From: a phage
Reading direction: 5' to 3' (one strand)
DNA: 64,000 nt
Assembly (NCBI GenBank): GCA_018015315.1
Contig: GCA_018015315.1_3629.1
Below the pieces are notes generated by a model. It saw nothing but the letters and a program-made list of their open reading frames with translations, was not told the origin of the DNA and searched no databases. The stretch's first letter is position 1; every line of letters begins with the position of its first letter. Shown here piece after piece: positions 36,080 to 55,006 of the stretch. Position numbers and translations under genes: made by a program.

Positions 36080-36080
36080 T

Positions 36081-36314: not shown

Positions 36315-36330
36315 CAAAAAGGAGAGAGCC

Positions 36331-37022: not shown

Positions 37023-37024
37023 TC

Positions 37025-37591: not shown

Positions 37592-37648
37592 AAAGGTGAG
37601 TTATAAGGTATTCATACACCTACCAACAATACAACAGGAGAGACTGAG

Positions 37649-38400: not shown

Positions 38401-38570
38401 AACGAAGATATCATTACCTGATGTGGAAGTTATATCATGGTGCTGCTAAAGCTTACCGCACCGTGTTTAGCAATGACAATCACTGCATTATGTTACACCT
38501 TACCGCCATTAAACATCACAATGAGTGGATTCGTGCAATCGTGATAGGTGACAAAGACTTTAAGTAAGGT
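38397..38570 (+). CDS. hypothetical small protein (57 aa)
   Basis: Hand-translated MKRRYHYLMWKLYHGAAKAYRTVFSNDNHCIMLHLTAIKHHNEWIRAIVIGDKDFK; ATGA overlap with HAD gene stop. Confidence 0.35.
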
Positions 38571-38618
38571 ATGCCTCAAAAACGTAATAGTGTGGCTTTC
38601 TAGATGGAGACTGACTAA

Positions 38619-38999: not shown

Positions 39000-39103
39000 T
39001 AGAATTTAAGGCCTCAAACGAGGCCTGTGCCTTCATAAATTGCCCCACCCTATGTGATTGCCTTCCTGAAACAAACACCCTCTTAAATCGCTTAAAATTA
39101 AGC

Positions 39104-39132
39104 TTGACATCAACGCAGAATTTTTATATGAT
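39104..39132 (+). promoter_or_regulatory. sigma70-type promoter
   Basis: -35 TTGACA, 17-nt spacer, -10 TATGAT; SD GAGGAG and ATG 39163 downstream. Confidence 0.5.
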
Positions 39133-39162
39133 TATCCCACCAACCAAGCAGAGGAGACTGTC

Positions 39163-39570
39163 ATGGATAATCTTACAAATATAAAAGTCGAAATTGTTAA
39201 GCTAAAATTCTTAGGCTTTCGAGACCCCAGCTCTATAACAGCTATAATCATGGATACCCATTTTACAGCAGGCAAGGAATACACTGCCGTCCGTTATACT
39301 TGCGGGGATCATAAATCTGCCTACAGTGTTAATACAAACCTCGGTGAGGGATATTTTATCCGTGATATTACGGATCATTTGTGGGGAATGTGGGAGTTGG
39401 TGAAGGAAGAGGGTAACTCACTCCCCAAAGAGATTTGGGTGCATACCTTCCACACAGGTAAGTTTGGAGGCACGGAACATAAATCTATTCACTACGATGA
39501 AGAAAGCGCCCTCAAGCAACAAGCTGTTCTTGGCGGGTCTGTAGAAAAATTTATTAAATGCGAGGACTGA
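39163..39570 (+). CDS. hypothetical protein (135 aa)
   Basis: ORF track; promoter 39104-39132 and SD GAGGAG upstream. Confidence 0.55.
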   Translation: MDNLTNIKVEIVKLKFLGFRDPSSITAIIMDTHFTAGKEYTAVRYTCGDHKSAYSVNTNLGEGYFIRDITDHLWGMWELVKEEGNSLPKEIWVHTFHTGKFGGTEHKSIHYDEESALKQQAVLGGSVEKFIKCED

Positions 39571-39573
39571 TAA

Positions 39574-39774
39574 ATGGCTGATTTTTGTAAAGACTGTTCT
39601 GAAGAGTTGTTTGGTCACGATTGCGGAGATCTGGAAGGACTAATCACAGAAGATCAGTGGAAGGAAGGTTATGCAGCACCTGTTATCTGCGAAGGTTGCG
39701 GCTATATCTACGTTGACCACAAAGGTAAACGCGTCCAGCCGTCTGAAGATGGGTCGTGTTGGGAATATTATTAA
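39574..39774 (+). CDS. zinc-ribbon-like small protein (66 aa)
   Basis: CKDC...CEGC Cys pairs; followed by bidirectional terminator. Confidence 0.45.
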   Translation: MADFCKDCSEELFGHDCGDLEGLITEDQWKEGYAAPVICEGCGYIYVDHKGKRVQPSEDGSCWEYY

Positions 39775-39775
39775 T

Positions 39776-39812
39776 TATAAAAAGAAAGGGGCCGTTTGGC
39801 CCCTTTTTATTT
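39776..39812. terminator. bidirectional terminator between convergent blocks
   Basis: Stem GGGGCC/GGCCCC with GTTT loop, A-run before and TTTTTATTT after; between plus gene end 39774 and minus gene end 39821. Confidence 0.65.
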
Positions 39813-39820
39813 ACCCTCCG

Positions 39821-42800: not shown

Positions 42801-45457
42801 TTAAACCACTGATTACAAGAGATATCTCTCATATAGTCATAATCGGAATATTTGTTTGCATCTTCGTTCCAACACAGGTTCAGGTTGGTGCCGCCCATGC
42901 ACACAATATATTCTGTGACATATTTATCACTTCTGGTTGGGATTCCTATGAACCATCTGTTAACAGGCTCGTCCCAAGCTGTCCGCTCATCTTTAACGCA
43001 GATAGCGATCCAGTCATGTGTTCCTGTTTTCTTGCACACATCGCGCTTCATACCATAATAAAACTCTTTAGTATTTGGCTCAGGTGCATTTATCAGGTAA
43101 CTCCACGCCTGATTTGCATAGGTTCCATTGGTGCGAGGATCATGGTCAAAGGCATACATGATGATCCTTTCTCCACCAAGATGTTCACCGAGGGTAACTT
43201 TGATGTTTACATCACCGTAACCGTTACGAACTATATCCATATTGTCAATAGAGATGCCTCTAGGGGTGTAGGCAATTTTCAGAGAACTATCTTCACTGGT
43301 ACCACCCAGAGTAATACCTATATTGTTTGTTGTTCCATCAACATATTTTACTGTAGCTTCCCAACGTATCCCGAAATACCCTGCGTTGTGGCTAACAACT
43401 TTCAGTGTGCGAGCACCTGGGTGAGGCTTACCAGGATCAGGCCATGGATCAGCATGCTCGTGCACTGTTAACGATGTTCCGTTCTGCTCGTTAACCTGCA
43501 GCATCTTCCCGCCTTTGCCGTTAGGGTTGAACTCCCACAAGGCTTGTGTTTTCACAAGATTGTCATAGATACTGCGTCTCTGGTCGTAGATCTCCTGGGT
43601 CACATCATACGTGGTAGATCCGGCATCTTGCCTGTGAAGCCTAACCATATATGCTGTATCGCTTTCTGGAGCAGGCTGAGAGCCGTTAAGCCCAAAGTAT
43701 ACAGTATCGTTTACATGGAACTGTTTCTTCCTGCCAACAGTGTGCCATTTGCCGTCTGACGGATATGCAGGAACTATAATGTTCCAGTTTAAGTTTCGTG
43801 TGGTGTGGGTTCTTCCAGCGCCATGTTTATCATGATAGGTGATCTTGACAGAATACAGACCGCGTCTGTTGATGTTACGGTTATGCTGGGTAACCACAAT
43901 CTCGTTAGCACCGCCATGGTTCCAGTTAGTAGAGAACTGATAGTTTGCATCTGTAACAACAGTACCTGCAGCGTTCACGAGCTCAATCTTGTCAATAATG
44001 AACGTAGCACCCTCCGGTTGAGGTTTCAACTTCATTTTGACAGTGTCGCCAATGTATATATTGCTAACACTGCTTACACCATTGACATCAAAGATGTCTT
44101 CGATACTCCAGCTATCTACCGGAACATTTTTATACCAATTCTCAGGAATCTCTGTGAACCCTTGGCTGTTAAGTCTGCCGCCGAACAGGTTATTAGATCC
44201 TGAAAAACTACCACGTGGTATTCCTGACCACCAAAGCTTTCCATTTACCACACAGAATGTGCCTAAGAAACCTTCCCTGTGGATCCCTTGAAAATAAACG
44301 CTTTCTGTCCAGCTTACTGGCTCTGTCTGTTCAACAAACTTAGCTGTTGCCAGCGCTCTGTAATGAATAAAATTGGCCCTAGGATTATTATTAGCAGATT
44401 GAGCACCAATATCGTTACACAGGTTTCTGGAGAAACCACGGTACTGTTTTGTACCATTATTGAAGAAAATTCCACTAGTCCCGTACCCGCGAGCCATAAT
44501 TACTTCATGGGTATAGGTGATGTTAAGGCTTCTCCACGTGTCGTCACCCCAAACATCCTGACCATAAAACACATTAACAAGTTGTTGGTCATCAGGTTTG
44601 TGCATCCTTTCTGTGGCTATAATTGCCCCGTTAGGACCACACATAAACCCTTTCCACTCCTCATCTGCAGGAATGCCTCTCAAATCGTTACGAGTAATCT
44701 GCACAGGAGGCCAAACAAGGTCGTTTCTATTGTTATTTCTCAGAAAGTCGTATCCAGCAATCCAGAAACCTCTAGGACCACCGAAAATAACAGAGTTGTC
44801 ATGCACCTCGCAGTTGATGCTTGGGTTTTTCCAAGGTCCTGTTTCAGGATTTTCCGATGTCTCACCAATCTTTACAGGGGTTGCATGCTGATTTTTATCT
44901 ACATGCAAAGATCCGTAGGTGTTGTTACCAGATCCATATAGGTTAAGTATGCCAGTGCCTTCTGCCTCTGCAATAACCCAGACAGTGTTGTTAATACCAC
45001 CCATCACCTCAATAAGGCGCTCTGGGTGGGTGTCAAGGTGCAACCCTTTAACAATCTGTTCCGGAAGAGGTGTCCACTCGTTTACGCAAACATCATTACC
45101 GCCTGCCGCAGTGGATCCGATAAGACCTGCAGTGCAGCCGATGTAGAAAAACTGGTTATCAAAAGTCCGGATCACAAACGCACGGTCTGCTCTCCACACA
45201 TGATCAACATTCCAGGCTGTTTCGCTTGGGTAGTTTATAGGGTTACGATCCCCAGTGCGACACTCCCCGAACTTGTTATAGCCCGTAATATTAAGCTGAC
45301 CATCATCAAAAAGTATAGCTAAGCTATTTACATAGGATACTGTGTTGCTTGTACCATCACTGTTGTCTATTGGGTATGACAGAACAGCAAGTTCCTTAAT
45401 TCCACCCCTCTTATCGAGGAAATGACGACCAAGTTTTAGCAAAGGGATTGGAAGCAT
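39821..45457 (-). CDS. giant tail fibre / adhesin-like structural protein (1878 aa) with Ig-like Big_2-type domain
   Basis: Uninterrupted 5.6-kb ORF; Gly/Asn/Thr/Ser-rich fibre composition; segment ESSNTGIATVDANTGLVTFKAPGNVNITFVVTDDAGRK resembles Big_2. Confidence 0.8.
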   Translation of the reverse strand: MLPIPLLKLGRHFLDKRGGIKELAVLSYPIDNSDGTSNTVSYVNSLAILFDDGQLNITGYNKFGECRTGDRNPINYPSETAWNVDHVWRADRAFVIRTFDNQFFYIGCTAGLIGSTAAGGNDVCVNEWTPLPEQIVKGLHLDTHPERLIEVMGGINNTVWVIAEAEGTGILNLYGSGNNTYGSLHVDKNQHATPVKIGETSENPETGPWKNPSINCEVHDNSVIFGGPRGFWIAGYDFLRNNNRNDLVWPPVQITRNDLRGIPADEEWKGFMCGPNGAIIATERMHKPDDQQLVNVFYGQDVWGDDTWRSLNITYTHEVIMARGYGTSGIFFNNGTKQYRGFSRNLCNDIGAQSANNNPRANFIHYRALATAKFVEQTEPVSWTESVYFQGIHREGFLGTFCVVNGKLWWSGIPRGSFSGSNNLFGGRLNSQGFTEIPENWYKNVPVDSWSIEDIFDVNGVSSVSNIYIGDTVKMKLKPQPEGATFIIDKIELVNAAGTVVTDANYQFSTNWNHGGANEIVVTQHNRNINRRGLYSVKITYHDKHGAGRTHTTRNLNWNIIVPAYPSDGKWHTVGRKKQFHVNDTVYFGLNGSQPAPESDTAYMVRLHRQDAGSTTYDVTQEIYDQRRSIYDNLVKTQALWEFNPNGKGGKMLQVNEQNGTSLTVHEHADPWPDPGKPHPGARTLKVVSHNAGYFGIRWEATVKYVDGTTNNIGITLGGTSEDSSLKIAYTPRGISIDNMDIVRNGYGDVNIKVTLGEHLGGERIIMYAFDHDPRTNGTYANQAWSYLINAPEPNTKEFYYGMKRDVCKKTGTHDWIAICVKDERTAWDEPVNRWFIGIPTRSDKYVTEYIVCMGGTNLNLCWNEDANKYSDYDYMRDISCNQWFNQTTGYPPRQARVNPAIFTDTQVFLTKQANEVQTFKNKYDPNKWFYNCYGAFFWGPGELPNGGSCFEAATYGSDYIMGQVKKYKMIPGPETLGNAVDPYIVFSSVHANMNGEKYPFDVPVANGYRRVVMIIKCDLIGKQVPAENGTSTHPFEIALHYQFADSPFAGDKRISDTDAQRCKKVLLGAGWWWYEFDLTDKLTDNTKTLTGIRLDLGENMHKSVCDGTYGDPTVHLKYVSLEHPEETVIGPKLRLFGSWIAKDRVGMGKKVRGFLMDAGTEDMLVNAVWPTLEGTDYNNAARSVNWFNIHRAMWTTNCYLWRELNDNAFGFSNGRRMAIICWTTLQRCYDHNYEIGGRAWKDTRDRIVYNFADDNGGGAYNFGTSRLIHLNGSSAYKKEGYSGSMIEWGLVKDARVLMGQQLAAAIGPNAVQSVKPAWFDIPLWSSGTPGTAAINPTTGDLEISWEDLKQVGGWDKTGYQVQWWKSDGSLAADEFVKDNFYTMSSAKAQQLFGQATPSTITMSMCCKDNRTGALGPRVAKVFSGIKWNLPVQSVSWKQIGDNRLLVTPACQFNATLNVVPVVAANSAKASDFSVSNTAMADVRKIDTLNARITCKNTYGTFQVINNFTDADSKVVRTASQTLRLGTLAYAALITEQSSTLQGGGVGKSITTPVWKPNEWVVFDLTVDFSSDNNWTWVRDCLSQLMGGPSSIRDSHDSTDPGVFQVGKTHPETGATLPDRKYALVCISHGKADVTFSGTHTYNGTYNFSRKYSLKAGNIVDEVGVLYNPGNGIGIVGGKLQMQEPSITPSNVTGIRKTWESSNTGIATVDANTGLVTFKAPGNVNITFVVTDDAGRKTSSTSFTVKQMTPQWRMWIGRATNGAYPNPAGTSGMKTFSASRPMEYGSGPKVGQMVYFGAYIPEIIGLPRNQIQLLFGSGVDELATFGYSDNIEAARSSGWVGFRLQLAVEGRVMGFGSIGAMLPGDQQYDLEAYATFSR

Positions 45458-45465
45458 TGTGTTCT

Positions 45466-45498
45466 CCAGATAAGAAAACCGCCCCGTCAGGAGCGGTT
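45466..45498 (-). terminator. possible terminator/attenuator between fibre genes
   Basis: Stem AACCGC/GCGGUU with 10-nt loop then UUCUUAUC. Confidence 0.4.
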
Positions 45499-45505
45499 AG
45501 ATATA

Positions 45506-47251
45506 TTAACGTTGTGCAATTACTACGTCTACAATATCACCAACACCACAATACGTTAATTGCAGCAAGGTAACACTGTTAGCCTTGTTGTTAATAACAG
45601 GTGTTGCCGACAGGATAGCATACTTATCGTGCAAAGTCACGTTGTGACCTACAGCATCCTGAATGACATAGATAACTGCAGTGAATGGATAAGGTTTATC
45701 TTCCGCTGATGTCCCAGGCCACTGACCTATTGTAAAATCCCCTTTAGCGTGGACAACATACATACTGGCCTGCCCGTTAGGTGTCCATGTCCCACTGGAC
45801 GCGTCAACCTCCTCTAAATCAAAATCTACCTTTCCTGCGTGGAAAGTAGGGGCAGTAATGGTTTTACCCGCCTCAATTTCTTGAGAGGTGGTTATCTTAC
45901 CGCTGGAGTTAATGCCATTACAAACAAAGTTGACATTAGAGAAGTCTGGCAGCCACCCAGTCACTGTGCCGGATATTTCAAGGTTGTGAAGGTAGGTGGT
46001 TCCCGTACCTGCTGCGTTTAAACTAACATCTCCATTTACCTGCAAGTTTCGGGTAACGTTGCAGTTTTCAGAGTTTGCAGTTGTTGCAGTTAAAGTGGTG
46101 GTTGTCAGCTCGGTAATTGTACCTTTATTAGCTGTAAGCCCTTCTCCTTCAAAAGTTGCACGCTCATTAACTCTTAAGGTATTCAGAGCTATGTTTTGGA
46201 TAGAGGCCGTACCTCGAATAACTACAGACCCGCCAACCTCCAAATCGCCATTTATCAATGCATCACCAGTGCTTTCAATATAGCTAGGGTAGATCATGGT
46301 GCCATCGACAGAGTATGTTATCCCTGTAACGGTACCTGTCACCTCAAGGTTCTTAACCCTGGTGGTCCCATCGACCTGCAATGTCGGTTCGGTTGCTGCC
46401 TTCATGGCATTACCACGAATGTACACGTAGTCAAAAAAGTTATTACCCAGACCATCAAAATGCACATCGTTATTATTAGCCACTGGTTTCCCAGAAGTTA
46501 TAGTGTCAGCTATAACCCTGTGGGTGGACACTTCATGAGGTTGCAGCTCTGTACTTCTCCAGTCTGCATGCTTAGGATCGCTCCACGCAAAAGTAAGTGT
46601 AGAAGTATTTGCCGTGAGGATTAGATTCCTAAAGCGTGCAGTAGAATCTGCCCCATTAACAGGTCCATGTAAGGTAAGGGTGCCACCAACTATGGTGTTA
46701 GCAAGTTCTGTAAGACCTTTTACCACCAAAGACCCTACAGTAACCTTCATCCCCTCCATAGCTTCAAATATGCTATCTACATAGTCAACAACAAACTCTG
46801 TGTTTGCTATAGACTCAGACTTATCGTCCATTGGAGGCGTAGGTACTCGCGGGTCACCTTCGAACCTTGGGCTGTTAAGTTTTGCGTAGTATTTTGCCAT
46901 TACTGCAGAGTCGGTATATAATCTCCAGTTTGGAGATTGTGAAGGATCTGCTGGCATTCTAACCGGGTTAGATTTTGATGCTGCGGGAGCGTACCACCAC
47001 TGAGGGCCTGTGTCCCCTTTAAACTCATATAGCTGGTTAAAAACTGTTGTGGATGCACCATACGCCCAAGGGATCGGCGGCGTTTTAAAATAAAGGGTGT
47101 CAAGCATGGCTTTTCGTACCGTAGGGATGGTGGTCCCATCCTCTACGACAACTTCATCCACAGCGTTACCGTTGACAATCAGGTGCAAACGTTCAGAATC
47201 AACAATTACTTGATCTACCGCCTGCTCAAAGCTTGTCATGTCTTGCGCCAT
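45506..47251 (-). CDS. tail fibre / tailspike-like protein (581 aa)
   Basis: Repetitive Gly/Thr/Asn-rich beta-type sequence; sits in fibre cluster. Confidence 0.65.
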   Translation of the reverse strand: MAQDMTSFEQAVDQVIVDSERLHLIVNGNAVDEVVVEDGTTIPTVRKAMLDTLYFKTPPIPWAYGASTTVFNQLYEFKGDTGPQWWYAPAASKSNPVRMPADPSQSPNWRLYTDSAVMAKYYAKLNSPRFEGDPRVPTPPMDDKSESIANTEFVVDYVDSIFEAMEGMKVTVGSLVVKGLTELANTIVGGTLTLHGPVNGADSTARFRNLILTANTSTLTFAWSDPKHADWRSTELQPHEVSTHRVIADTITSGKPVANNNDVHFDGLGNNFFDYVYIRGNAMKAATEPTLQVDGTTRVKNLEVTGTVTGITYSVDGTMIYPSYIESTGDALINGDLEVGGSVVIRGTASIQNIALNTLRVNERATFEGEGLTANKGTITELTTTTLTATTANSENCNVTRNLQVNGDVSLNAAGTGTTYLHNLEISGTVTGWLPDFSNVNFVCNGINSSGKITTSQEIEAGKTITAPTFHAGKVDFDLEEVDASSGTWTPNGQASMYVVHAKGDFTIGQWPGTSAEDKPYPFTAVIYVIQDAVGHNVTLHDKYAILSATPVINNKANSVTLLQLTYCGVGDIVDVVIAQR

Positions 47252-47260
47252 GATTTCTCC

Positions 47261-47527
47261 TTAAGCTTTTTGCTCTTCGTTTTTAACGTGGTCAGGGTGC
47301 TGGCAACCCCACCGGAGCGAGATGAATTTGCTAATAAGCTGGGGGCAGGCTACTGAAGGTGCATATATCCACGCATACCATTCAGGAAGCGTATCATTAT
47401 ACCCCATATGAATAAACACCCCAGTCATCACCGCCATGCCTATGTTCGACCATAGCTTAGATTGGGATACTTTCGTAGGGTCATCAGATGCCGCAACCAG
47501 TCCCCATAAAAACTGAGTTAGTTTCAT
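47261..47527 (-). CDS. hypothetical protein with one hydrophobic segment (88 aa)
   Basis: ORF track; hydrophobic NIGMAVMTGVFIHMG. Confidence 0.4.
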   Translation of the reverse strand: MKLTQFLWGLVAASDDPTKVSQSKLWSNIGMAVMTGVFIHMGYNDTLPEWYAWIYAPSVACPQLISKFISLRWGCQHPDHVKNEEQKA

Positions 47528-47538
47528 TTACCCTCTTT

Positions 47539-48585
47539 TTAAGCATAAGATATAGTGATCCATTGACCATTTACAAGTTTTTGGATAGCACCTGTCCAGT
47601 AGTCACCTTGATAAGGGTGTTTATAAGCGTAGTTACCAGAGCACATCACATGTCCAGGGTAGACTCTTGACTCTCTGTAGGTGGTTTTGAAACGGTTTGC
47701 TATCCTTACATCATCAACCCCTCTGCTAGGCATAGGAATAGTAAGGTTACCACTACTGTCTGCGCCGTTACCATTTACCCTGCGGACCACGTTTCTTCCA
47801 CCAACTGTTGCATATTGGCCCCTGACGGTTTCATCGTTACAATCAACTCTTCCACCTATTTGAGCGCTTCCGCAGGATTGTTGTCCATTAACAGTGGCTC
47901 TTGGTATAGTAACTGCATTGGCATTTGCAGAGGAACTTTTTGCATCGTTGCATTCAAGATTTCCTTGGATAGCCAGTCTTGCACGGTTGGCAGTTATAGC
48001 ATTGAGCTTCATAGCCGAAAACACAGGATGCCCACCAGAAGGTTGAAATCTCCAACGGAACCCGTCTATTTGGTGAGAAGGATCATCAAGGTCTGTGCCG
48101 TCAGCACCGCCGATGTTGTCCATAATCCAGAAGTCCATAGTCGTCTTGTCTGGAGTTATGGTGGTATATATTGCCGCATTGTCTGTTGACGCAGATGCAA
48201 ACTCGATTCTTTGAAGACCTAAAGTTTGAGTCTGAGTCATTATGTCTCCAGACTTGTCAACATACAGATCGTCCATTTCTTCAGGCGAGTATACATTGAG
48301 AACTTGACGTGCAGCAGCTTTGTCTGGAACGTCTGCTAGATTATTAGTGACCCTTAAGAATCTATTGTCCCATCCTGGGACAACATCCTCTGTTAAATGC
48401 TTTAACCACGCAGAAAGCATGTGAAGTTCAAAGTTAACAACTTCACATGCCACTCTTTGTGTCATATCCCAACCTTTCAATCTCTCTTCTTTTTTTGGTT
48501 GAGATTTATTCAACTCTCCCGTATTTTCAAGCACAACATCCTGATTGGCCCAAATATCAAGAGGGATAACTGGTTTAGTCATCAC
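47539..48585 (-). CDS. tail fibre protein, paralog A (348 aa)
   Basis: Conserved N-terminus and C-terminal tip IQKLVNGQWITISYA shared with 49597..50637; tip resembles recalled P2 gpH C-terminus. Confidence 0.65.
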   Translation of the reverse strand: MMTKPVIPLDIWANQDVVLENTGELNKSQPKKEERLKGWDMTQRVACEVVNFELHMLSAWLKHLTEDVVPGWDNRFLRVTNNLADVPDKAAARQVLNVYSPEEMDDLYVDKSGDIMTQTQTLGLQRIEFASASTDNAAIYTTITPDKTTMDFWIMDNIGGADGTDLDDPSHQIDGFRWRFQPSGGHPVFSAMKLNAITANRARLAIQGNLECNDAKSSSANANAVTIPRATVNGQQSCGSAQIGGRVDCNDETVRGQYATVGGRNVVRRVNGNGADSSGNLTIPMPSRGVDDVRIANRFKTTYRESRVYPGHVMCSGNYAYKHPYQGDYWTGAIQKLVNGQWITISYA

Positions 48586-48671
48586 GTTCTCCTGAGAAAA
48601 TTCCTTAGGACTATTTTAACACTTTAGGGAACAAAATGCAAGAACGGAGTCCTTTCCGTCCTGACCTTTGT

Positions 48672-48986
48672 TTACCTTTTACTATGCTCTACAAGCATGT
48701 GCAAAATCTTTTGTACATCAGCTCTGATGCCGGAGACATCTGTCCTAACATCCTGCTTAAGGTCGTTAATATCGGCCTCTAGCTTGCTTAACCGAGTCTC
48801 GATAATAGAATCAAGTTTATCTTTTGTAACCATACTGTTTTTCACTAAGATGAGGTCTTTCTCCAGTTCATCCAACCTCTTGGAAATGCCTTTCCATTTG
48901 GTGTGCCACTGGTTGAAAGCCCATACACAGATCGGGACAACGGTACCCATGCAGATACCGTACAATGCCGCCAAATCCAACTCCAC
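48672..48986 (-). CDS. membrane-anchored coiled-coil protein (104 aa)
   Basis: N-terminal hydrophobic segment then charged heptad region. Confidence 0.45.
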   Translation of the reverse strand: MELDLAALYGICMGTVVPICVWAFNQWHTKWKGISKRLDELEKDLILVKNSMVTKDKLDSIIETRLSKLEADINDLKQDVRTDVSGIRADVQKILHMLVEHSKR

Positions 48987-48997
48987 AACACCTCCTC

Positions 48998-49582
48998 TTA
49001 GAGGGTAGGTCGCTCCGGGAAGAAAATGTCAGGGGCTTTAGATGTATCTATTTCAAGAAGTTTTACCCTGTACATTTTCAAATCTCTGATGTTACGTTTC
49101 TGGTCATCAGTAAGATCATATTCAAGGTCAATCATGTCTTGATAGGCACCAATTCTAGCAGTAGCCCAAGCAAGTTCTGTCTCTATGACACCCTCTGCCT
49201 GTTGAACAAAGAATTCATTGTCTGTGACAAATTCATCACCAACTAAACGCAAAGCGTCGTGGTGAAGCATAATGTTTTCTGGTACCTCTTCTTTTTTGGC
49301 GATAACCACACGAAGACCTGGAGCAGGCCATAGGGCATCAGGTTCTTCTGTAGATGTCTTAAGAATTCCCTTCTCGTCAACAAGTAGGAAGATACAACCA
49401 GGATTTTCTTGTCGTAATGTTCGTGACTGCACATACCAATCGCCATCATCATTACGTAAAAAATACCCAGTGTATGCGGTGTAATCCTCAACCTCTTGAG
49501 GGGTCAGCTCCTTGGTTCCCTTGTTGGGGAGGTATTCGCCAGATCCCGGTTGGTAAAGTTTAAACTCTTGAAGTATTTTCAT
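48998..49582 (-). CDS. tail fibre assembly chaperone (Tfa-like)
   Basis: C-terminal RNIRDLKMYRVKLLEIDTSKAPDIFFPERP matches recalled Tfa signature; directly follows a fibre gene. Confidence 0.7.
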   Translation of the reverse strand: MKILQEFKLYQPGSGEYLPNKGTKELTPQEVEDYTAYTGYFLRNDDGDWYVQSRTLRQENPGCIFLLVDEKGILKTSTEEPDALWPAPGLRVVIAKKEEVPENIMLHHDALRLVGDEFVTDNEFFVQQAEGVIETELAWATARIGAYQDMIDLEYDLTDDQKRNIRDLKMYRVKLLEIDTSKAPDIFFPERPTL

Positions 49583-49596
49583 GCTAGTCCTCCGAT

Positions 49597-50637
49597 CTAT
49601 GCATAATTAACAGTGATCCATTGACCATTTACAAGTTTTTGTAAAGGTCCTGCCCAGTAGGTTGAACCACGCATCTCTTTTTTGTCACCGAAATGCCAAC
49701 CTGTGACAACGTAGCCGTTGCGAATTGGAGATTCGGAAACGCCGTCAACAAGTCTTGCACCGATTCTGATGTCTTGCACACCTGTCTGCGGGATAGTGAT
49801 CGTTACATCACCGTTGCCGTTAGCTGTCACTCCATTCACGGAGCGCACCACATTTCTGTTACCGACAACACAGTGCTGGCTTCTTACAACCATACTGTCA
49901 CAACTTGCACCACCATTAATATATACTGACCCAGCCGTCAACTGACTAGCCACATTACAGTTGGTGAATGTTGCTGTATTGCTGATAGTAAGGTTATTGC
50001 ACCTCATGTTATCGACAACTTCAACATTGCCTACCACTTTCAACAGCGCACGGTTAGCCGTGATCGCGTTAAGGTACATCAAAGTGAACTCTGGATTAAT
50101 ATCCGGCTGAGTTGGCTGGAATCTCCAACGAAACGCATCTACTGTAGATGTACCACCATCATCAAACGACCCAATATTATCACTTAACCCGAAGTCGAGA
50201 GTTGTCTTATCTGGGCCAATAGTTGTCTCTATCCAAGCCTTATCTGTCTCGGCAGCTTTAAAGTTGATACGTTGCAAACCCAATGGGCCTGTCATTGTAT
50301 CACCTGTAACTTTTACATACCTGGCGTCTGCCTCTTCCTTAGTAATAATCCCAAGGTTTCTACGGGCAACAGGAATGTTCAAAAGATCACTCAAGTTATT
50401 ATCACGTACCAGATAACGGCCTTCTTGAGCGGGGATCTGCTCGTCAGCAATGTATTTTGCCCAAGTTCCGAGCATATTGAAAATATAGTTAAGTTCTTCA
50501 CATGAGGGCTTTTGACCAAGATCCCAACCTTTTCTCCACAAATCATCAATCGGGCGTAGCCTGTTCTGTCTGTGGGTGTTAGGCAGAACCTGATCCTCCT
50601 CTGCCCAAATCTCTAATGGAAAACTAGGTTTTGACAT
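49597..50637 (-). CDS. tail fibre protein, paralog B (346 aa)
   Basis: N-terminus MSKPSFPLEIWAEEDQVLPNT and tip LQKLVNGQWITVNYA shared with paralog A; central region divergent. Confidence 0.7.
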   Translation of the reverse strand: MSKPSFPLEIWAEEDQVLPNTHRQNRLRPIDDLWRKGWDLGQKPSCEELNYIFNMLGTWAKYIADEQIPAQEGRYLVRDNNLSDLLNIPVARRNLGIITKEEADARYVKVTGDTMTGPLGLQRINFKAAETDKAWIETTIGPDKTTLDFGLSDNIGSFDDGGTSTVDAFRWRFQPTQPDINPEFTLMYLNAITANRALLKVVGNVEVVDNMRCNNLTISNTATFTNCNVASQLTAGSVYINGGASCDSMVVRSQHCVVGNRNVVRSVNGVTANGNGDVTITIPQTGVQDIRIGARLVDGVSESPIRNGYVVTGWHFGDKKEMRGSTYWAGPLQKLVNGQWITVNYA

Positions 50638-50649
50638 TTTATCTCCTGA

Positions 50650-52722
50650 TTATGAGAAGTCTGGCGGGACAACATCCTCTACATACCCTTTCAGAGCAAC
50701 CTGCCCCATATGAAGCACGGTAGAATCTCTAGCGGTAACAGTGATGCTGTCAGACATTACTTGCGGATATGCCCACACATACTGTTTTACCTCAGGGTAT
50801 CTATACTCTATAGTTGCCATGTTTCCGCAAATACATCTCCATAAAAATTCTTGGTAATTCCTGGTTGGGTCGTAGCCATATACCGGAGCAAGCTCTTTAC
50901 TAGGAACGAACCCTGCAAGGTATTGTATTTCAGACGGTTGCCAACCTAACTTAACGATAGGTATGTTTACAGACTCTTTTGCCTTTTCAATACCTCCCTG
51001 CATCACCCAATCGTAGCACTCAGTGCAGAAGAAATCAAGAGCACCTGCTTCCTTTTTATATTGGTCAGCAAGGTTCAGCTTTTGCGTAAGCTCGGTTTCC
51101 ATAATGGTTGGGAAAAACAGCAAAGCTGTCATCTGAGCTGATGCAGCGTGTGCTTTTATTGCCTTTGAAATAGCAGCAATACGAGCGCCAAGCTTACCAC
51201 GACAAAATGCTACATACTTGTCGTAAACACCGCCAGTTTTAGGATCGTCAATAGTCCCAATATCTAAGGCATACTCTCCTGTCTCATCATAAAACGCCTG
51301 TTTTGTAGGGTAATCATAAATACAAGGTCTACGAGTATCGGTATTGTACCACCACCACGGTTCACCAACCTGCATAATCACTGGCAGGTTGTTTCTCATA
51401 GCGACTGATGCAAAATTCTTAAATACTGCAGTAAGGAAATTCATACCCTCTTCAATGGTTGGAGACAGGAGGTAGCTACAAGGTGTATATCCTGTTTTAG
51501 CGTAGTTATCATTCCAGTCTCTTTGGGTCCATTCCAACGGGCAGGCATCGCTGTAAAGCTCAAAACTTACAGACTGCATAACGTCGAAGTTATGTCGTTT
51601 GGCATTGTACATAAAATCATCATGCCATTTATAAGCTGCAGCGTTTAGCGCCCCTGTTCTGTTTATAGACCATTGGGTTCCTGACCATGTGTAGTCATAA
51701 TAATGACTCATACCAACATAATGGTTTATGGTTCCGGTATAGCCCAGACGCTTGATATTGTTCAACACCCTTAAAGGAGATACGTTCCACATATCGTCAT
51801 ATGCGGTGCAGATCCCAACGTCGTGCTCTTTAACCTGAATATTGTTAAGTTGCATCATTTTCCAGCCCGTGTCTGGCTGAAGCAGATCTAGGCGCAACTC
51901 ACACTCTACATTTTCCGTTCTCGGGTCTGTGCTATTACTTACCCAGTCTTTAGGCATGAGCGGTATTAAAATTCTTCTCACCTGTCGAGGATCAACACCC
52001 ATCATGTTGTTGTTCTGATCCATCCCGACGCAGTCCTCGAAATCAATATGAATCTCTGCAACATTCTTATCCTCTGAGATGCTGACAGCATATTGAGCTA
52101 AAGGAACATAGATGATTGTACCATCAACAAGGTCTACAGTCATAATCATCTTTTCAGGAGTGGAGAAGTTGCTGGCATTGGTTATTGACATTCTGAACCA
52201 AAGCTTGGTGTTTCTCATCTCATAGTGATCATCAAACCCAATACCGAAATGGTCATACTTGTCAACTGTTTCCCAAATGCACCCAGCCATACCTCCATAT
52301 GTTCTTGACACTAAACGGTTAATACAACAGTTGTCATCTGCAACAATACAGGTACTTTCAGTCTGCTGAGTGGTTGTAACCCAATATCTTGGGTGAAACA
52401 TTCTCTCCTCGACAGTATCCCAAGATATTCTGTCAAGATTCTCATCTGAAACTATTGTACATTTCGCCCTTTGTGTCCCAATCATCACCCCTTGAGATTT
52501 TGATGAAAACTCCATAAAGAAGCTTCTTGGTAACCTGTTGGGTAATTTGTCAACAATTTCCACTGGGATTTCAATACTGGTTGCCCCAACTGGGATAGTT
52601 ATATCGCCCTCAACATGATCATAATCCCTACCAGGAACGGCAGTATCCTGAACTGTGCGGTAATGAAACCGTGCAGCCATTGTAGAGTAATCACGGTAAG
52701 GTTTAAAAACAGCTGTTGCCAT
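50650..52722 (-). CDS. large structural (tail/baseplate-associated) protein, function unresolved (690 aa)
   Basis: ORF track; sits between baseplate-like genes and fibre genes. Confidence 0.6.
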   Translation of the reverse strand: MATAVFKPYRDYSTMAARFHYRTVQDTAVPGRDYDHVEGDITIPVGATSIEIPVEIVDKLPNRLPRSFFMEFSSKSQGVMIGTQRAKCTIVSDENLDRISWDTVEERMFHPRYWVTTTQQTESTCIVADDNCCINRLVSRTYGGMAGCIWETVDKYDHFGIGFDDHYEMRNTKLWFRMSITNASNFSTPEKMIMTVDLVDGTIIYVPLAQYAVSISEDKNVAEIHIDFEDCVGMDQNNNMMGVDPRQVRRILIPLMPKDWVSNSTDPRTENVECELRLDLLQPDTGWKMMQLNNIQVKEHDVGICTAYDDMWNVSPLRVLNNIKRLGYTGTINHYVGMSHYYDYTWSGTQWSINRTGALNAAAYKWHDDFMYNAKRHNFDVMQSVSFELYSDACPLEWTQRDWNDNYAKTGYTPCSYLLSPTIEEGMNFLTAVFKNFASVAMRNNLPVIMQVGEPWWWYNTDTRRPCIYDYPTKQAFYDETGEYALDIGTIDDPKTGGVYDKYVAFCRGKLGARIAAISKAIKAHAASAQMTALLFFPTIMETELTQKLNLADQYKKEAGALDFFCTECYDWVMQGGIEKAKESVNIPIVKLGWQPSEIQYLAGFVPSKELAPVYGYDPTRNYQEFLWRCICGNMATIEYRYPEVKQYVWAYPQVMSDSITVTARDSTVLHMGQVALKGYVEDVVPPDFS

Positions 52723-53408
52723 TAACCCTCCTGTCTAGTTGCGTTTACTGTAATACTTTCACAATAAATGGTTGTGGTGTCCCAATCAGGTCTTACGTCA
52801 GGAACATACAGCAAAGTAGCCAGCCCACCAACTCCGAATTGGTTTTCTTCCCACACTGATCCGAAGCCAAGAGCTGCAGAGTCACCTTCAAAACCAAAAG
52901 CTTGCCCTTGCGATTCTGTAAGACGCAAATGACAAGGCAGTGGTAGCATGTCTAAGATCTGATCAATAGACTGCAATATGTCAAAGCAAGTTTTTCTAAT
53001 ATTTATGTCAAACCTGAAGTTGTCTCCTTTCCACGTATCGAAATTGTTTCTTCCGAACAATTGTCGCAAGGTGGAGATGACATCTTCGCGAGTCCCGCCC
53101 CTTGATGCTGCGGCCTGCTGAATAATTAGTGTGGCACGAAAATCAGCATCTGAAAGTCCATTCCTAAGAATACCGAGTTGATTACCAACTTCGTCAAGGT
53201 ATCTTCCGCTGGCATTATTAAGCAATCTTCCTTCAGCCAAACCTACCAGCATCTTATCAACATCCTCCAACCTTTTAAGGTACACGGTTAAGAATGTGAC
53301 TAAATTAACCTTCTCAGCCAGAAAATCTCCAGGCAGGTAGTCAAGACCTCCCTGAACAAAATCTGGCAGAGTGTGGATGTGGTTAACATCCGACTTAATC
53401 TCTGCCAT
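52722..53408 (-). CDS. baseplate-associated protein, possibly P2 gpI-like (228 aa)
   Basis: Position immediately after baseplate-J-like gene as in P2/Mu; weak sequence recall only. Confidence 0.45.
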   Translation of the reverse strand: MAEIKSDVNHIHTLPDFVQGGLDYLPGDFLAEKVNLVTFLTVYLKRLEDVDKMLVGLAEGRLLNNASGRYLDEVGNQLGILRNGLSDADFRATLIIQQAAASRGGTREDVISTLRQLFGRNNFDTWKGDNFRFDINIRKTCFDILQSIDQILDMLPLPCHLRLTESQGQAFGFEGDSAALGFGSVWEENQFGVGGLATLLYVPDVRPDWDTTTIYCESITVNATRQEG

Positions 53409-53419
53409 ATCTCGCCGCC

Positions 53420-54910
53420 TTAAATAGTTTGTTGGAAAGTTATATTACTTTCATCGAGGTCAAACACCTCGGTCATGTTTGCAACAATATCGTTTGCAGT
53501 GTAAGCTTCATCAGAAGCCCCCACAGGTTTAACTTGAATTACCAGTCTATTAAATCTACCTATCGACACAGCAGCAGATGCAGCACCAACCAATTGGATA
53601 TTGTACAACGTATCTGCAACATCCAGTCCGTTAACAACCTGCAAAAGAGCCTCTACAATGGCATCTTTTTCGGTTGTGGAAAGCGCAGCACCGGAGTAGG
53701 TAATTCTTACATCCAGGCGGTAGGTATTTGCCTTGGAATAATAAATTCTTTCAGTTTGACCGTCAGATGTAGTTACATCGTAGAAAATATTACCATAAGT
53801 TCTGTTCGTACAGGCTATAGTTTGGTAAAGTGCTTGGCAAATGTCCTCCGTTGCACCACCAAACACAACCACTTGGAACTTGTAAGGAGGTATACCTTTA
53901 GCATCAGTTTTATCGGTGTTGTTGGAGAACACTCTCACTTTCTCAACACCTTTCACCTCGCTTACCGCGCTAAGGATTGCAGGACGGGTAGCCTTCGATG
54001 TTAACTGTTTAGTGCTGGAAGCTCTTAAGCGATACTCGGAATCTTTCTCAACATCCCTGCCCTCGTTGAATCTTTCGCGGTTGGTAAGCTTGATAAATCC
54101 ACTGGGAGTAGGTGACATTGTTGTCACGGTTTCTGCCTCTCTTGACAGCTCACCAGCCTCGTTAGCGATAACATCCAAGGTGATGGTTCTTTCCCCTACA
54201 ATCGGGGATACTCTGAAATCTACCCTACTATTAAGTCCAACTTGATCAAGATTCGAATTGTACCCTATCCACAACGTTCCTGTCAACATATCGATCTGAA
54301 TCAAATCGTCGTTCAACAGGGTTGTATTATCGACAATGAATTGCTTAATCTCTCCGTAAAAGCTTGGCAGATCAGAAGAGTCCAGAGCCTTATCTGTTAA
54401 AACCAAACTTTTTGTTTTGATACTTCCATCTGTCTGGTTGGTAATTTGAAAGTTGTATTTACCAATCCTTAGGTCTGGAGCATTTATTCTGTGGGCAATA
54501 AGATTCCCTGCCACTTGCACATCATTACTAAGAACAAAGTTGCCACTATCCAGCGTATAAGTTTTGGAATCATAAATCATATTGTACGGCACAGTTGTGT
54601 TGATCGTCAACTGGCAGGTACCTGATGATTTAGAACGGCCTCTTCGGTAAATACCTTGTCTTCCAAGAAGTTCGTCTAGGTAAATACCTTCTGCCCCATA
54701 CAGCGTCTGTGATGCGTATACAGATGCTGCCATAAGAATAAGTTGATACTCTCGCTCGTTGAAGATAGTGGTCAGCTTATCTGCAACGGAGTTACTCTGT
54801 ACGTTGAAGTTTTCGCCAAAAGCACGGATCAGGCTTTGCTTAGTTTCAACGATTAGGTCATTTAGGGTTGGTATAACGAAACCAGCCTCTGTCAATCCAT
54901 ACTTAGCCAC
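53420..54910 (-). CDS. baseplate J-like protein
   Basis: N-terminal IPTLNDLIVETKQSLIRAFG resembles Baseplate_J (Mu gp47/P2 J) N-terminus; GTG start with SD GGAGGAG. Confidence 0.55.
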   Translation of the reverse strand: MAKYGLTEAGFVIPTLNDLIVETKQSLIRAFGENFNVQSNSVADKLTTIFNEREYQLILMAASVYASQTLYGAEGIYLDELLGRQGIYRRGRSKSSGTCQLTINTTVPYNMIYDSKTYTLDSGNFVLSNDVQVAGNLIAHRINAPDLRIGKYNFQITNQTDGSIKTKSLVLTDKALDSSDLPSFYGEIKQFIVDNTTLLNDDLIQIDMLTGTLWIGYNSNLDQVGLNSRVDFRVSPIVGERTITLDVIANEAGELSREAETVTTMSPTPSGFIKLTNRERFNEGRDVEKDSEYRLRASSTKQLTSKATRPAILSAVSEVKGVEKVRVFSNNTDKTDAKGIPPYKFQVVVFGGATEDICQALYQTIACTNRTYGNIFYDVTTSDGQTERIYYSKANTYRLDVRITYSGAALSTTEKDAIVEALLQVVNGLDVADTLYNIQLVGAASAAVSIGRFNRLVIQVKPVGASDEAYTANDIVANMTEVFDLDESNITFQQTI

Positions 54911-54978
54911 GTCACTCCTCCGGTATGAAAATCTCTACAAGGTATTTTACCAAATTTTGTAACAATAGTCAATCTGAG

Positions 54979-55006
54979 CATAAAAATAAACCCCGCCGAA
55001 GCGGGG
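54979..55006 (-). terminator. intrinsic terminator, UUCG-loop family
   Basis: AGCCCCGC-UUCG-GCGGGG then UUUAUUUUUAUG. Confidence 0.7.

What the first reader, a model, noticed from the sequence alone, without database searches (positions are those of the whole stretch)
47539..50637. Two paralogous tail fibre genes with conserved ends and divergent centres, one with a Tfa chaperone
Proteins of 348 and 346 aa share the N-terminal region and the C-terminal tip (...KLVNGQWIT.xYA) but differ across the middle. A recognisable tail fibre assembly protein follows paralog B. The layout suggests modular receptor-binding cassettes that could confer dual or switchable host range.
Basis: partly seen in the sequence, partly recalled or inferred. 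Interest (0 to 1): 0.4.

Follow-up and report, generated by a model that had tools for sequence, protein, structure and literature searches.

The report
Two rV5 short tail fibre paralogs
The window comes from an rV5-like E. coli phage, and the two genes are its already published pair of short tail fibre paralogs (gp30 and gp33) with one shared assembly chaperone (gp32); this is an ordinary, known feature, and nothing in the sequence suggests a host-range switch.

Summary
Two same-strand genes (47539-48582, 347 aa; 49597-50637, 346 aa) encode full-length paralogs with 44% identity (E 1e-95). A Pfam-confirmed Tfa chaperone (48998-49582) follows the upstream copy.

The window is 97-98% identical to more than 100 Vequintavirus (rV5-like) genomes. 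The genes are rV5 gp30, gp33 and gp32. Kropinski 2013 described the pair and suggested "two chemotypes of LPS". [quoted passage not shown]

"Conserved ends, divergent centre" is only partly right, because residues ~110-200 form the best conserved large block. "Switchable" is not supported: the genes are in direct orientation, there are no inverted repeats, rV5 has no annotated invertase, and gp30 has its own predicted late promoter.

Points I did not find in the papers read:
- gp30 sits where related genera carry a 4-TM membrane protein gene.
- The duplication is specific to this lineage, and slot 2 evolves about 1.7 times faster.
- A 30-nt block at the 3' tips is exactly identical between the paralogs. 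A sister lineage shares three synonymous changes in both copies, which points to short-tract gene conversion.

Dual receptor specificity is still untested. Novelty: already known.

The parts
49597..50637 (-). Short tail fibre paralog B (rV5 gp33 ortholog, 346 aa). It holds the ancestral, syntenic position after the wedge genes and is directly followed by the Tfa.
   Evidence: The ORF is. It matches PHROG 4465 at E 1e-171. Residues 1-108 match the phiTE short tail fibre 9cuy_c at E 1.5e-19, and residues 286-343 match Mu tail fibre S (5yvq) at E 1.9e-6. The AF2 model's only significant PDB match is 5yvq_A, E 9.8e-7. It is 96-99.7% identical in about 116 Vequintavirus records. rV5 gp33 is annotated.
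48998..49582 (-). Tail fibre assembly chaperone (rV5 gp32 ortholog, 194 aa). It is the only Tfa in the locus.
   Evidence: It matches Pfam PF02413 at 45.2 bits (cut-off 22.1), on residues 122-192 only, and PHROG 136 at E 9e-36. It is annotated 'tail fiber chaperone' or 'tail fiber assembly protein'. No second Tfa ORF lies between 45000 and 55000.
48672..48986 (-). Protein of 104 aa with one transmembrane segment and a coiled coil (rV5 gp31 ortholog). It is conserved next to STF-Tfa in all related genera. Its function is unknown.
   Evidence: It matches PHROG 5345 at E 8e-49 and has only weak coiled-coil Pfam hits. Syntenic homologs are found in PVP-SE1 gp44, GAP31_228, Hena1 gp199 and the phi92 gp149 slot. 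rV5 Table S3 lists it as 'membrane protein, 1 TMD'.
48583..48671 (-). Intergenic gap upstream of paralog A. It contains a terminator-like stem-loop (48662-48641) and the predicted late promoter P030 (TGTTAAAATA).
   Evidence: The scan and sequence are. It matches rV5 'P030 22274..22310 TTGTTCTCTAAAGTGTTAAAATAGTCCTAAGGAATTT' in Kropinski Table S4 with one mismatch. All other gene junctions in the locus are 10-15 nt.
47539..48582 (-). Short tail fibre paralog A (rV5 gp30 ortholog, 347 aa). This is the second, faster-evolving copy, and it has no Tfa of its own.
   Evidence: The ORF is. It matches PHROG 4465 at E 8e-166. Residues 2-84 match the phiTE STF 9cuy_c at E 1.2e-9. The AF2 model's only significant PDB match is 5yvq_A, E 1.1e-6. 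It is 95.4-100% identical in about 117 Vequintavirus records. dN against the sister lineage is 0.155, compared with 0.093 for B.
47261..47527 (-). Membrane protein of 88 aa (rV5 gp29 ortholog) directly downstream of paralog A.
   Evidence: It matches PHROG 1322 at E 2.7e-32. Syntenic homologs are found in PVP-SE1 gp42, GAP31_230 and phi92 gp144.
47554..47583 (-). The 30-nt block in paralog A that is exactly identical to 49612-49641. It encodes QKLVNGQWIT.
   Evidence: See (repeat family D1, spacing 2058). All 9 degenerate codons are the same, compared with 34% same-codon use at the other 136 identical residues, giving P about 6e-5 to 1.3e-4.
49612..49641 (-). The 30-nt block in paralog B that is exactly identical to 47554-47583.
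   Evidence: The evidence is the same as for 47554-47583. In the sister lineage L011, both copies carry the same three synonymous changes (CTG, GTC, CAG).
52722..53408 (-). Baseplate wedge 1 protein (rV5 gp35 ortholog, 228 aa). It is the probable docking partner of the fibre N-termini.
   Evidence: phmmer gives phiTE 'Wedge 1 protein' 9mjn_dh at E 3e-66 and phi92 gp146 at E 4e-23. In the phiTE cryo-EM structure, STF residues 3-92 attach to wedge 1 (PMC11972413).
53420..54910 (-). Baseplate wedge 2 (J-like) protein (rV5 gp36 ortholog, 496 aa). It is the first gene of the predicted late operon that contains paralog B and the Tfa.
   Evidence: phmmer gives phiTE 'Wedge 2 protein' 9cuy_T at E 2.6e-158 and phi92 gp145 at E 1e-55. 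Predicted promoter P036 lies upstream in rV5.

Best explanation
The locus encodes the two short tail fibres (STFs) of an rV5-like myovirus and their single shared chaperone.

Shown here:
- Both proteins are full-length homologs with the same three-part build. The N-terminal ~100 residues are homologous to the part of the phiTE STF that clamps onto baseplate wedge protein 1. A shaft follows. The C-terminal ~60-residue tip is of the Mu GpS type.
- A Tfa (Caudo_TAP) gene follows the first copy only.
- Both copies are kept under purifying selection in at least three diverged lineages.
- The second copy arose by a duplication specific to this lineage. It sits where related genera carry a 4-TM membrane protein gene, and it has its own predicted late promoter.

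Inferred:
- Both are made late in infection. Both are trimerised with help from gp32, which by analogy with Mu Tfa binds the distal tip. Both are mounted on the wedge periphery. After the lateral fibres have engaged a surface glycan, the STFs bind LPS core and help trigger contraction.
- The extreme C-terminus (QKLVNGQWIT) stays the same in both paralogs because it is a core structural or chaperone-contact element. Short-tract gene conversion repeatedly homogenises it.
- In this lineage the two tips differ in one loop. B has TGWHFGDKKEMRGS, the widespread type. A has CSGNYAYKHPYQGD, a derived type. The two fibres therefore probably differ in fine LPS-core specificity or affinity. This would give a constitutively bivalent adsorption device, not a switchable one.
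For: - Identity of the locus: 97-98% nucleotide identity to more than 100 Vequintavirus genomes, with the same gene order as rV5 gp27-gp36.
- Paralogy and family.
- N-terminal homology to the phiTE STF (E 1.5e-19 for B, 1.2e-9 for A). Structural evidence that this region binds wedge 1 comes from PMC11972413. Window gp35 is phiTE wedge 1, E 3e-66.
- Tip homology to Mu S: by sequence for B (E 1.9e-6), and by fold for both (5yvq_A is the only significant hit, E ~1e-6).
- Tfa.
- phi92 gp147, the single homolog, was fitted to the downward-pointing fibre III (six trimers), which is proposed to mediate irreversible adsorption (PMC13450770).
- LPS core dependence of all tested Vequintavirinae, and the published description of the two STF paralogs plus chaperone: PMC8594841.
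- Single STF plus Tfa, with a 4-TM gene in the gp30 slot, in Seunavirus, Mydovirus and Henunavirus. phi92-likes also have one STF plus Tfa. No homolog of the 4-TM gene is present in the window.
- NJ tree: the A-slot clade has 99% bootstrap, the B-slot clade 100%, and A plus B together 62%.
- Both copies are retained in a sister lineage and a divergent lineage.
- dN is 0.155 for A and 0.093 for B, with the tips most conserved at 0.05.
- Own promoter for gp30.
- Gene conversion: 30 identical nt (P ~1e-4), and three synonymous changes shared by both copies in L011. In the D lineage the same ten residues are encoded with 6 synonymous differences, so the nucleotides themselves are not constrained.
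Against: - I found no direct evidence that either protein is in Vequintavirus virions. The rV5 paper's text lists gp30, gp32 and gp33 as detected, but its MS table as held contains 19 loci without them. Its gene table tags gp34 with 'MS evidence' but not gp30, gp32 or gp33.
- All BASEL Vequintavirinae show the same waaC/waaG dependence, and neither paralog varies among isolates. Two specificities are therefore not evident phenotypically.
- In the divergent D lineage, both paralogs carry the same B-type tip. The duplication is thus maintained even without tip divergence.
- phiTE has one wedge 1 per wedge, which means six STF sites. Both paralogs keep the invariant N-terminal residues. How two fibre types share these sites is unexplained.
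- The AF2 monomer models have low confidence (pLDDT 63 and 61).
- Tfa N-terminal domains are only 26-29% identical between phages whose tips are ~60% identical. The link between the conserved tail and Tfa docking is therefore inference only.
Confidence: 0.6

Rival explanations
1. Same receptor, different geometry or dosage. Both fibres bind the same LPS core sugar. The second copy is kept because it differs in shaft or attachment. It might occupy a second site on the baseplate, alternate with the first around the six wedges, or raise avidity. On this view it does not widen receptor range.
For: In the D lineage the two paralogs share an almost identical B-type tip, while their bodies are only ~45-50% identical. 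All tested Vequintavirinae need the same core sugars, and the paralogs do not vary among isolates. The largest divergence between orthologs lies in shaft segment 201-285, not in the tip.
Against: In the window's lineage and its sister lineage, the A-type tip loop is clearly different from the B-type. It has been conserved for as long as the two lineages have been apart (tip dN 0.05). That suggests a maintained, distinct binding surface.
Confidence: 0.3
2. Only one paralog is a virion fibre. The other (most likely the faster-evolving gp30) has a non-structural or accessory role, or is dispensable.
For: No MS evidence for gp30 or gp33 appears in the rV5 tables as held. Related genera manage with one STF. 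gp30 evolves faster.
Against: gp30 is intact and 95-100% conserved in about 117 isolates. It is retained in three diverged lineages under purifying selection. It keeps every invariant N-terminal residue of the family and the full fibre architecture. It also has a predicted late promoter like other structural genes.
Confidence: 0.06
3. Switchable host-range cassette. Recombination between the paralogs alternates which fibre or tip is expressed, as in the Mu Gin or P1 Cin S/S' systems.
For: The fibre tip and chaperone are of the Mu S/U family, whose best-known members are controlled by inversion. A 30-nt identical block exists in both genes.
Against: The genes and the 30-nt blocks are in direct orientation, not inverted. 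There is no meaningful inverted repeat. No invertase or recombinase is annotated in rV5. Recombination between the direct repeats would delete the only Tfa gene. Every Vequintavirus record that was listed shows the same arrangement with both copies.
Confidence: 0.02
4. The two paralogs co-assemble into heterotrimeric fibres.
For: They share the best conserved central block (residues ~110-200, 53-67% identity) and an identical C-terminal strand. Both are presumably folded by the same chaperone.
Against: Overall identity is 44% with several indels. Related genera, including phi92, have a single STF gene, so the fibre there must be a homotrimer. The two genes lie in separate predicted transcription units.
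Confidence: 0.04

Closest known systems
rV5 gp30 / gp33 / gp32 (Vequintavirus short tail fibre locus; Kropinski et al. 2013, PMC3606486; Maffei et al. 2021, PMC8594841)
   Same: These are the same genes. The order is identical from gp27 to gp36, the sizes are 347, 346 and 194 aa, and nucleotide identity is 97-98%. [quoted passage not shown]
   Different: Nothing of substance differs. The window is another isolate-level variant. Its paralog A is 100% identical to that of phage I29, and its paralog B is 99.7% identical to that of BP9.
phi92 gp147 / gp148 (fibre III and its Tfa; Justusliebigvirus)
   Same: It is a homologous STF followed by a Tfa and a small gp31-like gene, directly after the two wedge genes. 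Its tip is 60% identical to B's tip. It was fitted to the downward-pointing fibre in cryo-EM.
   Different: There is a single copy of 326 aa. The middle of the protein is unrelated, and tblastn covers only 38% of the query. There is no second paralog.
Phage Mu GpS / GpU (tail fibre and TfaMu, PDB 5YVQ)
   Same: The C-terminal tip is homologous, by sequence for B and by fold for both. The chaperone belongs to the same Pfam family, with a conserved C-terminal domain and a variable N-terminal domain (description of TfaMu in PMC9608196).
   Different: Mu carries S/S' and U/U' alternatives on an invertible G segment controlled by Gin. Here the two fibres are direct paralogs with one chaperone and no invertase. 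The N-terminal attachment domain is of the phiTE/Vequintavirinae type, not Mu's.
phiTE short tail fibre (PDB 9CUY/9MJN; Certrevirus)
   Same: The N-terminal ~100 residues are homologous. The wedge 1 and wedge 2 partners are also homologous. Even the last residues resemble each other: PIQKKVNGVWVTI against QKLVNGQWITV.
   Different: The phiTE STF is 554 aa, with a long coiled coil and Ig-like domains. That phage is flagellotropic and independent of LPS.
T4 gp12 short tail fibre
   Same: The proposed role is the same: a baseplate-bound trimer that binds LPS core irreversibly after the long or lateral fibres have engaged. HHpred similarity was reported in 2013.
   Different: phmmer finds no gp12 chain at E <= 1. 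T4 uses the gp57A chaperone, not a Tfa, and has a single gene.

Membership tests
Vequintavirinae-type short tail fibre (PHROG 4465; rV5 gp30/gp33) | Full-length sequence match to the family profile | tested here: met
   A scores E 7.9e-166 over 2-348 against profile positions 1-342. B scores E 1.3e-171 over 1-346.
Vequintavirinae-type short tail fibre (PHROG 4465; rV5 gp30/gp33) | N-terminal baseplate (wedge 1) attachment domain | tested here: met
   Sequence homology to phiTE STF residues 1-111 is E 1.5e-19 for B and 1.2e-9 for A. The invariant N-terminal residues P4, P7, W11, A12, L18, N25, P29, G37, D39, E47, N50 and W59 are present in both. The wedge 1 homolog is encoded two genes upstream of B. 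Physical binding was not tested.
Vequintavirinae-type short tail fibre (PHROG 4465; rV5 gp30/gp33) | Syntenic position after the wedge genes, followed by a Tfa | tested here: met
   B meets this feature, with gp34 inserted between the wedge genes and B. A does not: it lies two genes further downstream, in the slot that holds a 4-TM gene in other genera.
Vequintavirinae-type short tail fibre (PHROG 4465; rV5 gp30/gp33) | Trimeric fibre present in virions that binds LPS core | not testable with these tools
   The evidence is indirect only: the phi92 gp147 fit to density, phiTE STF density, and LPS-core dependence of the phages. The rV5 MS tables as held do not list gp30 or gp33.
Mu GpS-type fibre tip | C-terminal tip homologous to Mu S (5YVQ) | tested here: met
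   B matches by phmmer at E 1.9e-6, residues 286-343 against S 440-501. A has no sequence hit at E <= 1. By Foldseek, 5yvq_A is the only significant PDB match for both models, at E 9.8e-7 and 1.1e-6. The models have low overall confidence, but tip pLDDT is ~70-87.
Tail fibre assembly protein (Pfam PF02413 Caudo_TAP) | Score above the Pfam gathering threshold | tested here: met
   The score is 45.2 bits against a cut-off of 22.1, on residues 122-192 against profile positions 61-130 of 131.
Tail fibre assembly protein (Pfam PF02413 Caudo_TAP) | Gene immediately downstream of the fibre it serves | tested here: met
   The Tfa start lies 15 nt after the stop codon of B. For A this feature is not met, so A would have to borrow gp32 in trans.
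Tail fibre assembly protein (Pfam PF02413 Caudo_TAP) | Binds the fibre tip and is required for its folding | not testable with these tools
   This is inferred from the Mu TfaMu literature. Co-variation of the last four residues of both paralogs with the Tfa type (YA with the 194-aa Tfa, QTL with the 204-aa Tfa) is suggestive only.
Invertible host-range switch (Mu G segment / P1 C segment type) | Alternative fibre 3' parts in inverted orientation, flanked by inverted crossover sites | tested here: not met
   Both genes are on the minus strand. The shared 30-nt block is a direct repeat. The only inverted repeat in 45000-53500 is 19 nt at 79% complementarity.
Invertible host-range switch (Mu G segment / P1 C segment type) | Adjacent serine invertase gene (Gin/Cin/Hin family) | tested here: not met
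   None is found among the ORFs of 44000-55000, or in the annotated flanks of CarlMeissner. The words invertase, recombinase, integrase and resolvase do not occur in the rV5 gene table. The rest of the window was not scanned with Pfam.
T4 gp12 short tail fibre | Sequence homology to gp12 | tested here: not met
   phmmer against all PDB chains finds no gp12 chain at E <= 1 for either paralog. Only an older HHpred similarity is reported in the literature.

The most novel reading that the evidence does not exclude
Two anciently diverged short tail fibres depend on one chaperone and one type of wedge docking site. Two consequences would follow. First, the chaperone-contact and structural tail of both genes would be kept in step by recurrent short-tract gene conversion, which amounts to chaperone-enforced concerted evolution. 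Second, the two fibres would compete for the six wedge-1 sites. Each virion would then carry a mixed, possibly stochastic, set of two LPS-core adhesins. That would be constitutive bet-hedging at the irreversible adsorption step, in contrast to the genetic switches of Mu and P1.
Probability: 0.25. Interest if true: 0.4.

Novelty: already known. Interest (0 to 1): 0.18.

Why it matters
rV5-like phages are among the most often isolated broad-host-range E. coli phages and are candidates for therapy. Their irreversible-adsorption fibres help determine which LPS core types they can infect.

The pair of short tail fibres has been noted since 2013. In the papers I searched and read, no single-gene deletion, receptor-binding assay or structure of a Vequintavirus baseplate was reported. 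The practical question of what the second fibre adds therefore remains open and can be tested.

The added details would help in designing such experiments and fibre swaps. These details are the slot replacement, the faster evolution of the second copy, the same-tip variant lineage, and the conversion-homogenised tail shared with the single chaperone. As a genome-scan finding, however, this is a rediscovery of an annotated, published feature.

Tried and rejected
1. Invertible or switchable cassette. I looked for inverted repeats and for invertase genes. None was found, so this reading is rejected.
2. Virion proteomics for both paralogs. I read the rV5 MS table and searched it for paralog-specific tryptic peptides. 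Neither protein is listed, so the main-text claim could not be verified. The W70 proteome covers only the phiTE-type fibre.
3. dN/dS between the window and the sister lineage. Synonymous sites are saturated for most segments, so only dN could be compared.
4. Tight co-variation of Tfa N-domain and tip across phages. This was not found. Tips that are ~60% identical go with Tfa N-domains that are 26-29% identical, so the docking argument stays inferential.
5. AF2 monomer models of both fibres. Confidence is low (pLDDT 63 and 61). They were useful only for showing the same secondary-structure layout and a Mu S fold match. No multimer prediction was available.
6. A nucleotide-level functional element as the explanation for the 30-nt identity. 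This is rejected, because the D lineage encodes the same ten residues with 6 synonymous differences between its paralogs.
7. Search for the PVP-SE1 4-TM gene elsewhere in the window. Only a chance hit was found, at E 0.96.
8. Search for isolates of the D lineage in the phage collection. No slot-2 homolog above 60% identity was found, so this lineage is known here only from metagenome and Logan contigs.

Full report
**What is there**

On the minus strand the window encodes, in order of transcription:
- a J-like wedge protein (53420-54910)
- a small wedge protein (52722-53408)
- a 690-aa fibre protein with N4-gp65-like NCTSP domains (50650-52722)
- paralog B (49597-50637, 346 aa)
- a Tfa chaperone (48998-49582, 194 aa)
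- a 104-aa protein with a transmembrane segment and coiled coil (48672-48986)
- an 89-nt gap
- paralog A (47539-48582, 347 aa)
- an 88-aa membrane protein (47261-47527)
- two large fibre proteins (45506-47251 and 39821-45457)

A and B align over their whole length at 44% identity, E 1e-95. Both match PHROG 4465 'tail fiber protein' end to end. The Tfa passes the Pfam PF02413 threshold at 45.2 bits against 22.1, on its C-terminal 70 residues only.

**Corrections to the observation**

Paralog A most likely starts at the ATG at 48582, as annotated in all records. AGGAG lies 6 nt upstream. The GTG at 48585 is less likely.

The pattern 'conserved ends, divergent centre' does not hold. In sliding windows, the best conserved large block is residues ~105-220, at 53-67% identity. 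Divergence falls in three patches at ~45-100, ~215-260 and ~305-340. Only the last ~15 residues are nearly identical.

**Identity of the window**

The stretch 45000-53500 is 97-98% identical to more than 100 Vequintavirus (rV5-like) E. coli myovirus genomes. Gene order equals rV5 gp27-gp36. So A is gp30, B is gp33, the Tfa is gp32, and the small genes are gp31 and gp29.

The pair is already in the literature:
- Kropinski et al. [quoted passage not shown]
- Maffei et al. [quoted passage not shown] These are homologous to the single locus of phi92-like phages and ultimately to Mu GpS/GpU. The paralogs show no considerable allelic variation. All tested members need the LPS core sugars that are missing in waaC and waaG mutants (PMC8594841).

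**Domain anatomy**

The N-terminal ~100 residues of both paralogs are homologous to the N-terminus of the phiTE short tail fibre (9CUY), at E 1.5e-19 for B and 1.2e-9 for A. [quoted passage not shown] The window's gp35 is the wedge 1 homolog (E 3e-66), and gp36 is the wedge 2 homolog (E 2.6e-158). All invariant N-terminal residues of the family are present in both paralogs.

The last ~60 residues of B match Mu tail fibre S (5YVQ) at E 1.9e-6. AF2 monomer models of both paralogs have low confidence (pLDDT 63 and 61). They show the same secondary-structure layout, and 5yvq_A is their only significant PDB match, at E ~1e-6.

B's tip is of a widespread type. It is about 60% identical to the tips of PVP-SE1, phi92 and Rosemountvirus fibres. 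A's tip keeps the framework but replaces the loop TGWHFGDKKEMRGS with CSGNYAYKHPYQGD.

**Context and origin**

Seunavirus (PVP-SE1, GAP31), Mydovirus and Henunavirus have one STF followed by a Tfa and a gp31-like gene. In these genera a 4-TM membrane protein gene sits exactly where gp30 sits here, and a gp29-like gene follows. The phi92-like phages (phi92, PHB05) also have one STF followed by a Tfa and a gp31-sized gene, but the colanidase tailspike gene comes next. That 4-TM gene has no homolog in the window.

In an NJ tree, slot-2 proteins form one clade (99% bootstrap) and B-slot proteins another (100%). The two clades join with 62% support, apart from the single STFs of other genera. This indicates a duplication at the base of the Vequintavirus-like lineage, but the 62% node makes that only moderately secure.

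The gap upstream of gp30 holds a terminator-like stem-loop. It also holds the late-promoter motif that Kropinski listed as P030, with P036 heading the upstream operon. The two paralogs therefore sit in separate predicted late transcription units.

**Evolution**

Metagenome and Logan contigs add two further lineages:
- A sister lineage has B at 87-88%, A at 78% and the Tfa at 78% identity to the window.
- A divergent 'D' lineage has B at 73%, a slot-2 fibre at 48% and a 204-aa Tfa at 46% identity.

Both lineages keep two fibres and one Tfa. Against the sister lineage, nonsynonymous divergence is 0.155 for A and 0.093 for B. The tips are the most conserved part of both, at 0.05, and dN/dS is well below 1 wherever dS could be estimated. 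Both copies are therefore functional, and slot 2 evolves faster.

In the D lineage, the last ~40 residues of the two paralogs are almost identical and of the B type, while the bodies remain 45-50% identical.

**Concerted evolution at the tip**

The longest exact DNA word shared by A and B is 30 nt (47554-47583 and 49612-49641), encoding QKLVNGQWIT. The next longest shared words are 12 nt. All 9 degenerate codons in the block are the same. Elsewhere, only 34% of the other 136 identical residues use the same codon. This gives P about 6e-5, or 1.3e-4 from codon usage.

In the sister lineage, both copies carry the same three synonymous changes (CTG, GTC, CAG) relative to the window. Flanking sites group by paralog: 25 sites by paralog against 3 by genome in the last 90 columns, and those 3 are exactly these changes.

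In two other W-lineage contigs the blocks differ at 2-3 positions. In the D lineage they differ at 6 synonymous positions. The nucleotides themselves are therefore not constrained. I read this as episodic short-tract gene conversion on a strongly constrained peptide.

The last four residues also go with the Tfa type. Both paralogs end in YA where the Tfa is the 194-aa form, and in QTL where it is the 204-aa form. This fits a shared chaperone or structural contact but does not prove one.

**Mechanism**

The best supported reading is two co-expressed, Mu-S-type short tail fibres. One Tfa folds both. Both mount on the wedge periphery and bind LPS core for irreversible adsorption, after the lateral fibres have engaged a surface glycan. 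This role is taken from phi92 fibre III (gp147, the single homolog), which was fitted to the downward-pointing fibre (PMC13450770).

Whether the two tips give two specificities is untested. The conserved but different tip loops of A and B argue for it. The uniform LPS phenotype of the phages and the same-tip D lineage argue for a geometric or avidity role instead.

An open structural question is how two fibres with the same attachment domain share the six wedge-1 sites.

**What is not supported**

A switch is not supported. The genes and the repeat are in direct orientation, and there is no meaningful inverted repeat. No invertase or recombinase is annotated in rV5. Recombination between the direct repeats would delete the only Tfa gene.

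The rV5 text lists gp30, gp32 and gp33 among detected proteins. The MS table as held lists 19 loci without them, and the gene table tags gp34 but not these three with MS evidence.

**Verdict**

The switchable reading can be set aside. The dual-specificity reading is an old, still untested speculation. The slot replacement, the rate asymmetry, the same-tip lineage and the conversion-homogenised tail are modest additions that I did not find in the papers read. Interest is low.

Noticed in passing
window 45000-53500 against GenBank MG0656xx records: Sixteen to twenty-one records named 'Campylobacter phage ...' (host C. jejuni) are about 98% identical to this E. coli rV5-like sequence and are its best nucleotide hits. 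The host assignments of these unannotated records are probably wrong, or the records are contaminants.
   Followed up: no
rV5 paper PMC3606486, text against Tables S3 and S5: The main text says gp30, gp32 and gp33 were detected by whole-phage proteomics. The MS table as held lists 19 loci without them. The gene table marks gp34 with 'MS evidence' but not these three genes.
   Followed up: yes
window 52722-54910 (gp35, gp36) against phi92 paper PMC13450770: The phi92 2026 paper's text says each wedge has one gp145 and two gp146. Its Fig 3J legend names gp145-i, gp145-o and gp146. The phiTE paper has one small wedge 1 and two large wedge 2. Window gp36 corresponds to wedge 2 and gp145, and gp35 to wedge 1 and gp146. 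The protein named as the docking partner of the short fibre therefore differs between the two papers.
   Followed up: partly
window 48672-48986 and 47261-47527: Two small membrane-protein genes (gp31-like, 104 aa, one TM segment plus coiled coil; gp29-like, 88 aa) are conserved next to the STF-Tfa pair across Vequintavirinae. Homologs or similar-sized genes are also present in phi92-like phages. In Seunavirus, Mydovirus and Henunavirus they flank a 4-TM gene where this phage has paralog A. Their function is unknown, and they are oddly placed inside a structural operon.
   Followed up: partly
window 50650-52722: The 690-aa protein between the wedge genes and paralog B carries NCTSP_N and TIM-barrel_NCTSP domains (E 5e-80) plus Calx-beta. 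These are the N4 gp65-like module that recent work links to the NGR/ECA glycan receptor. In phi92 the homolog (gp142) sits elsewhere in the tail locus, and in PVP-SE1 it is absent from this position.
   Followed up: no
L014, L018, L020, L025 (metagenome / IMG-VR contigs of 117-140 kb): An uncultured Vequintavirus-like lineage has the same two-fibre, one-Tfa layout. Both of its fibres carry the same B-type tip (last ~40 aa nearly identical). Its slot-2 fibre is only 48% identical to gp30. No isolate in the phage collection has this slot-2 allele above 60% identity.
   Followed up: partly
L023 (IMGVR_UViG_2609460249_000004, 42 kb contig) 11194-11222: An apparently unrelated, smaller phage contig has a fibre ending in ...ARPIQKLVNGQWITVGQL, with a different preceding sequence. 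This shows that the terminal strand motif travels with many fibre types.
   Followed up: no
window 32000-40000: GC skew flips from negative to positive between about 32 kb and 40 kb and then returns. This is consistent with a block of genes on the opposite strand, which are plus-strand genes in CarlMeissner upstream of gp27. It was not examined further.
   Followed up: no
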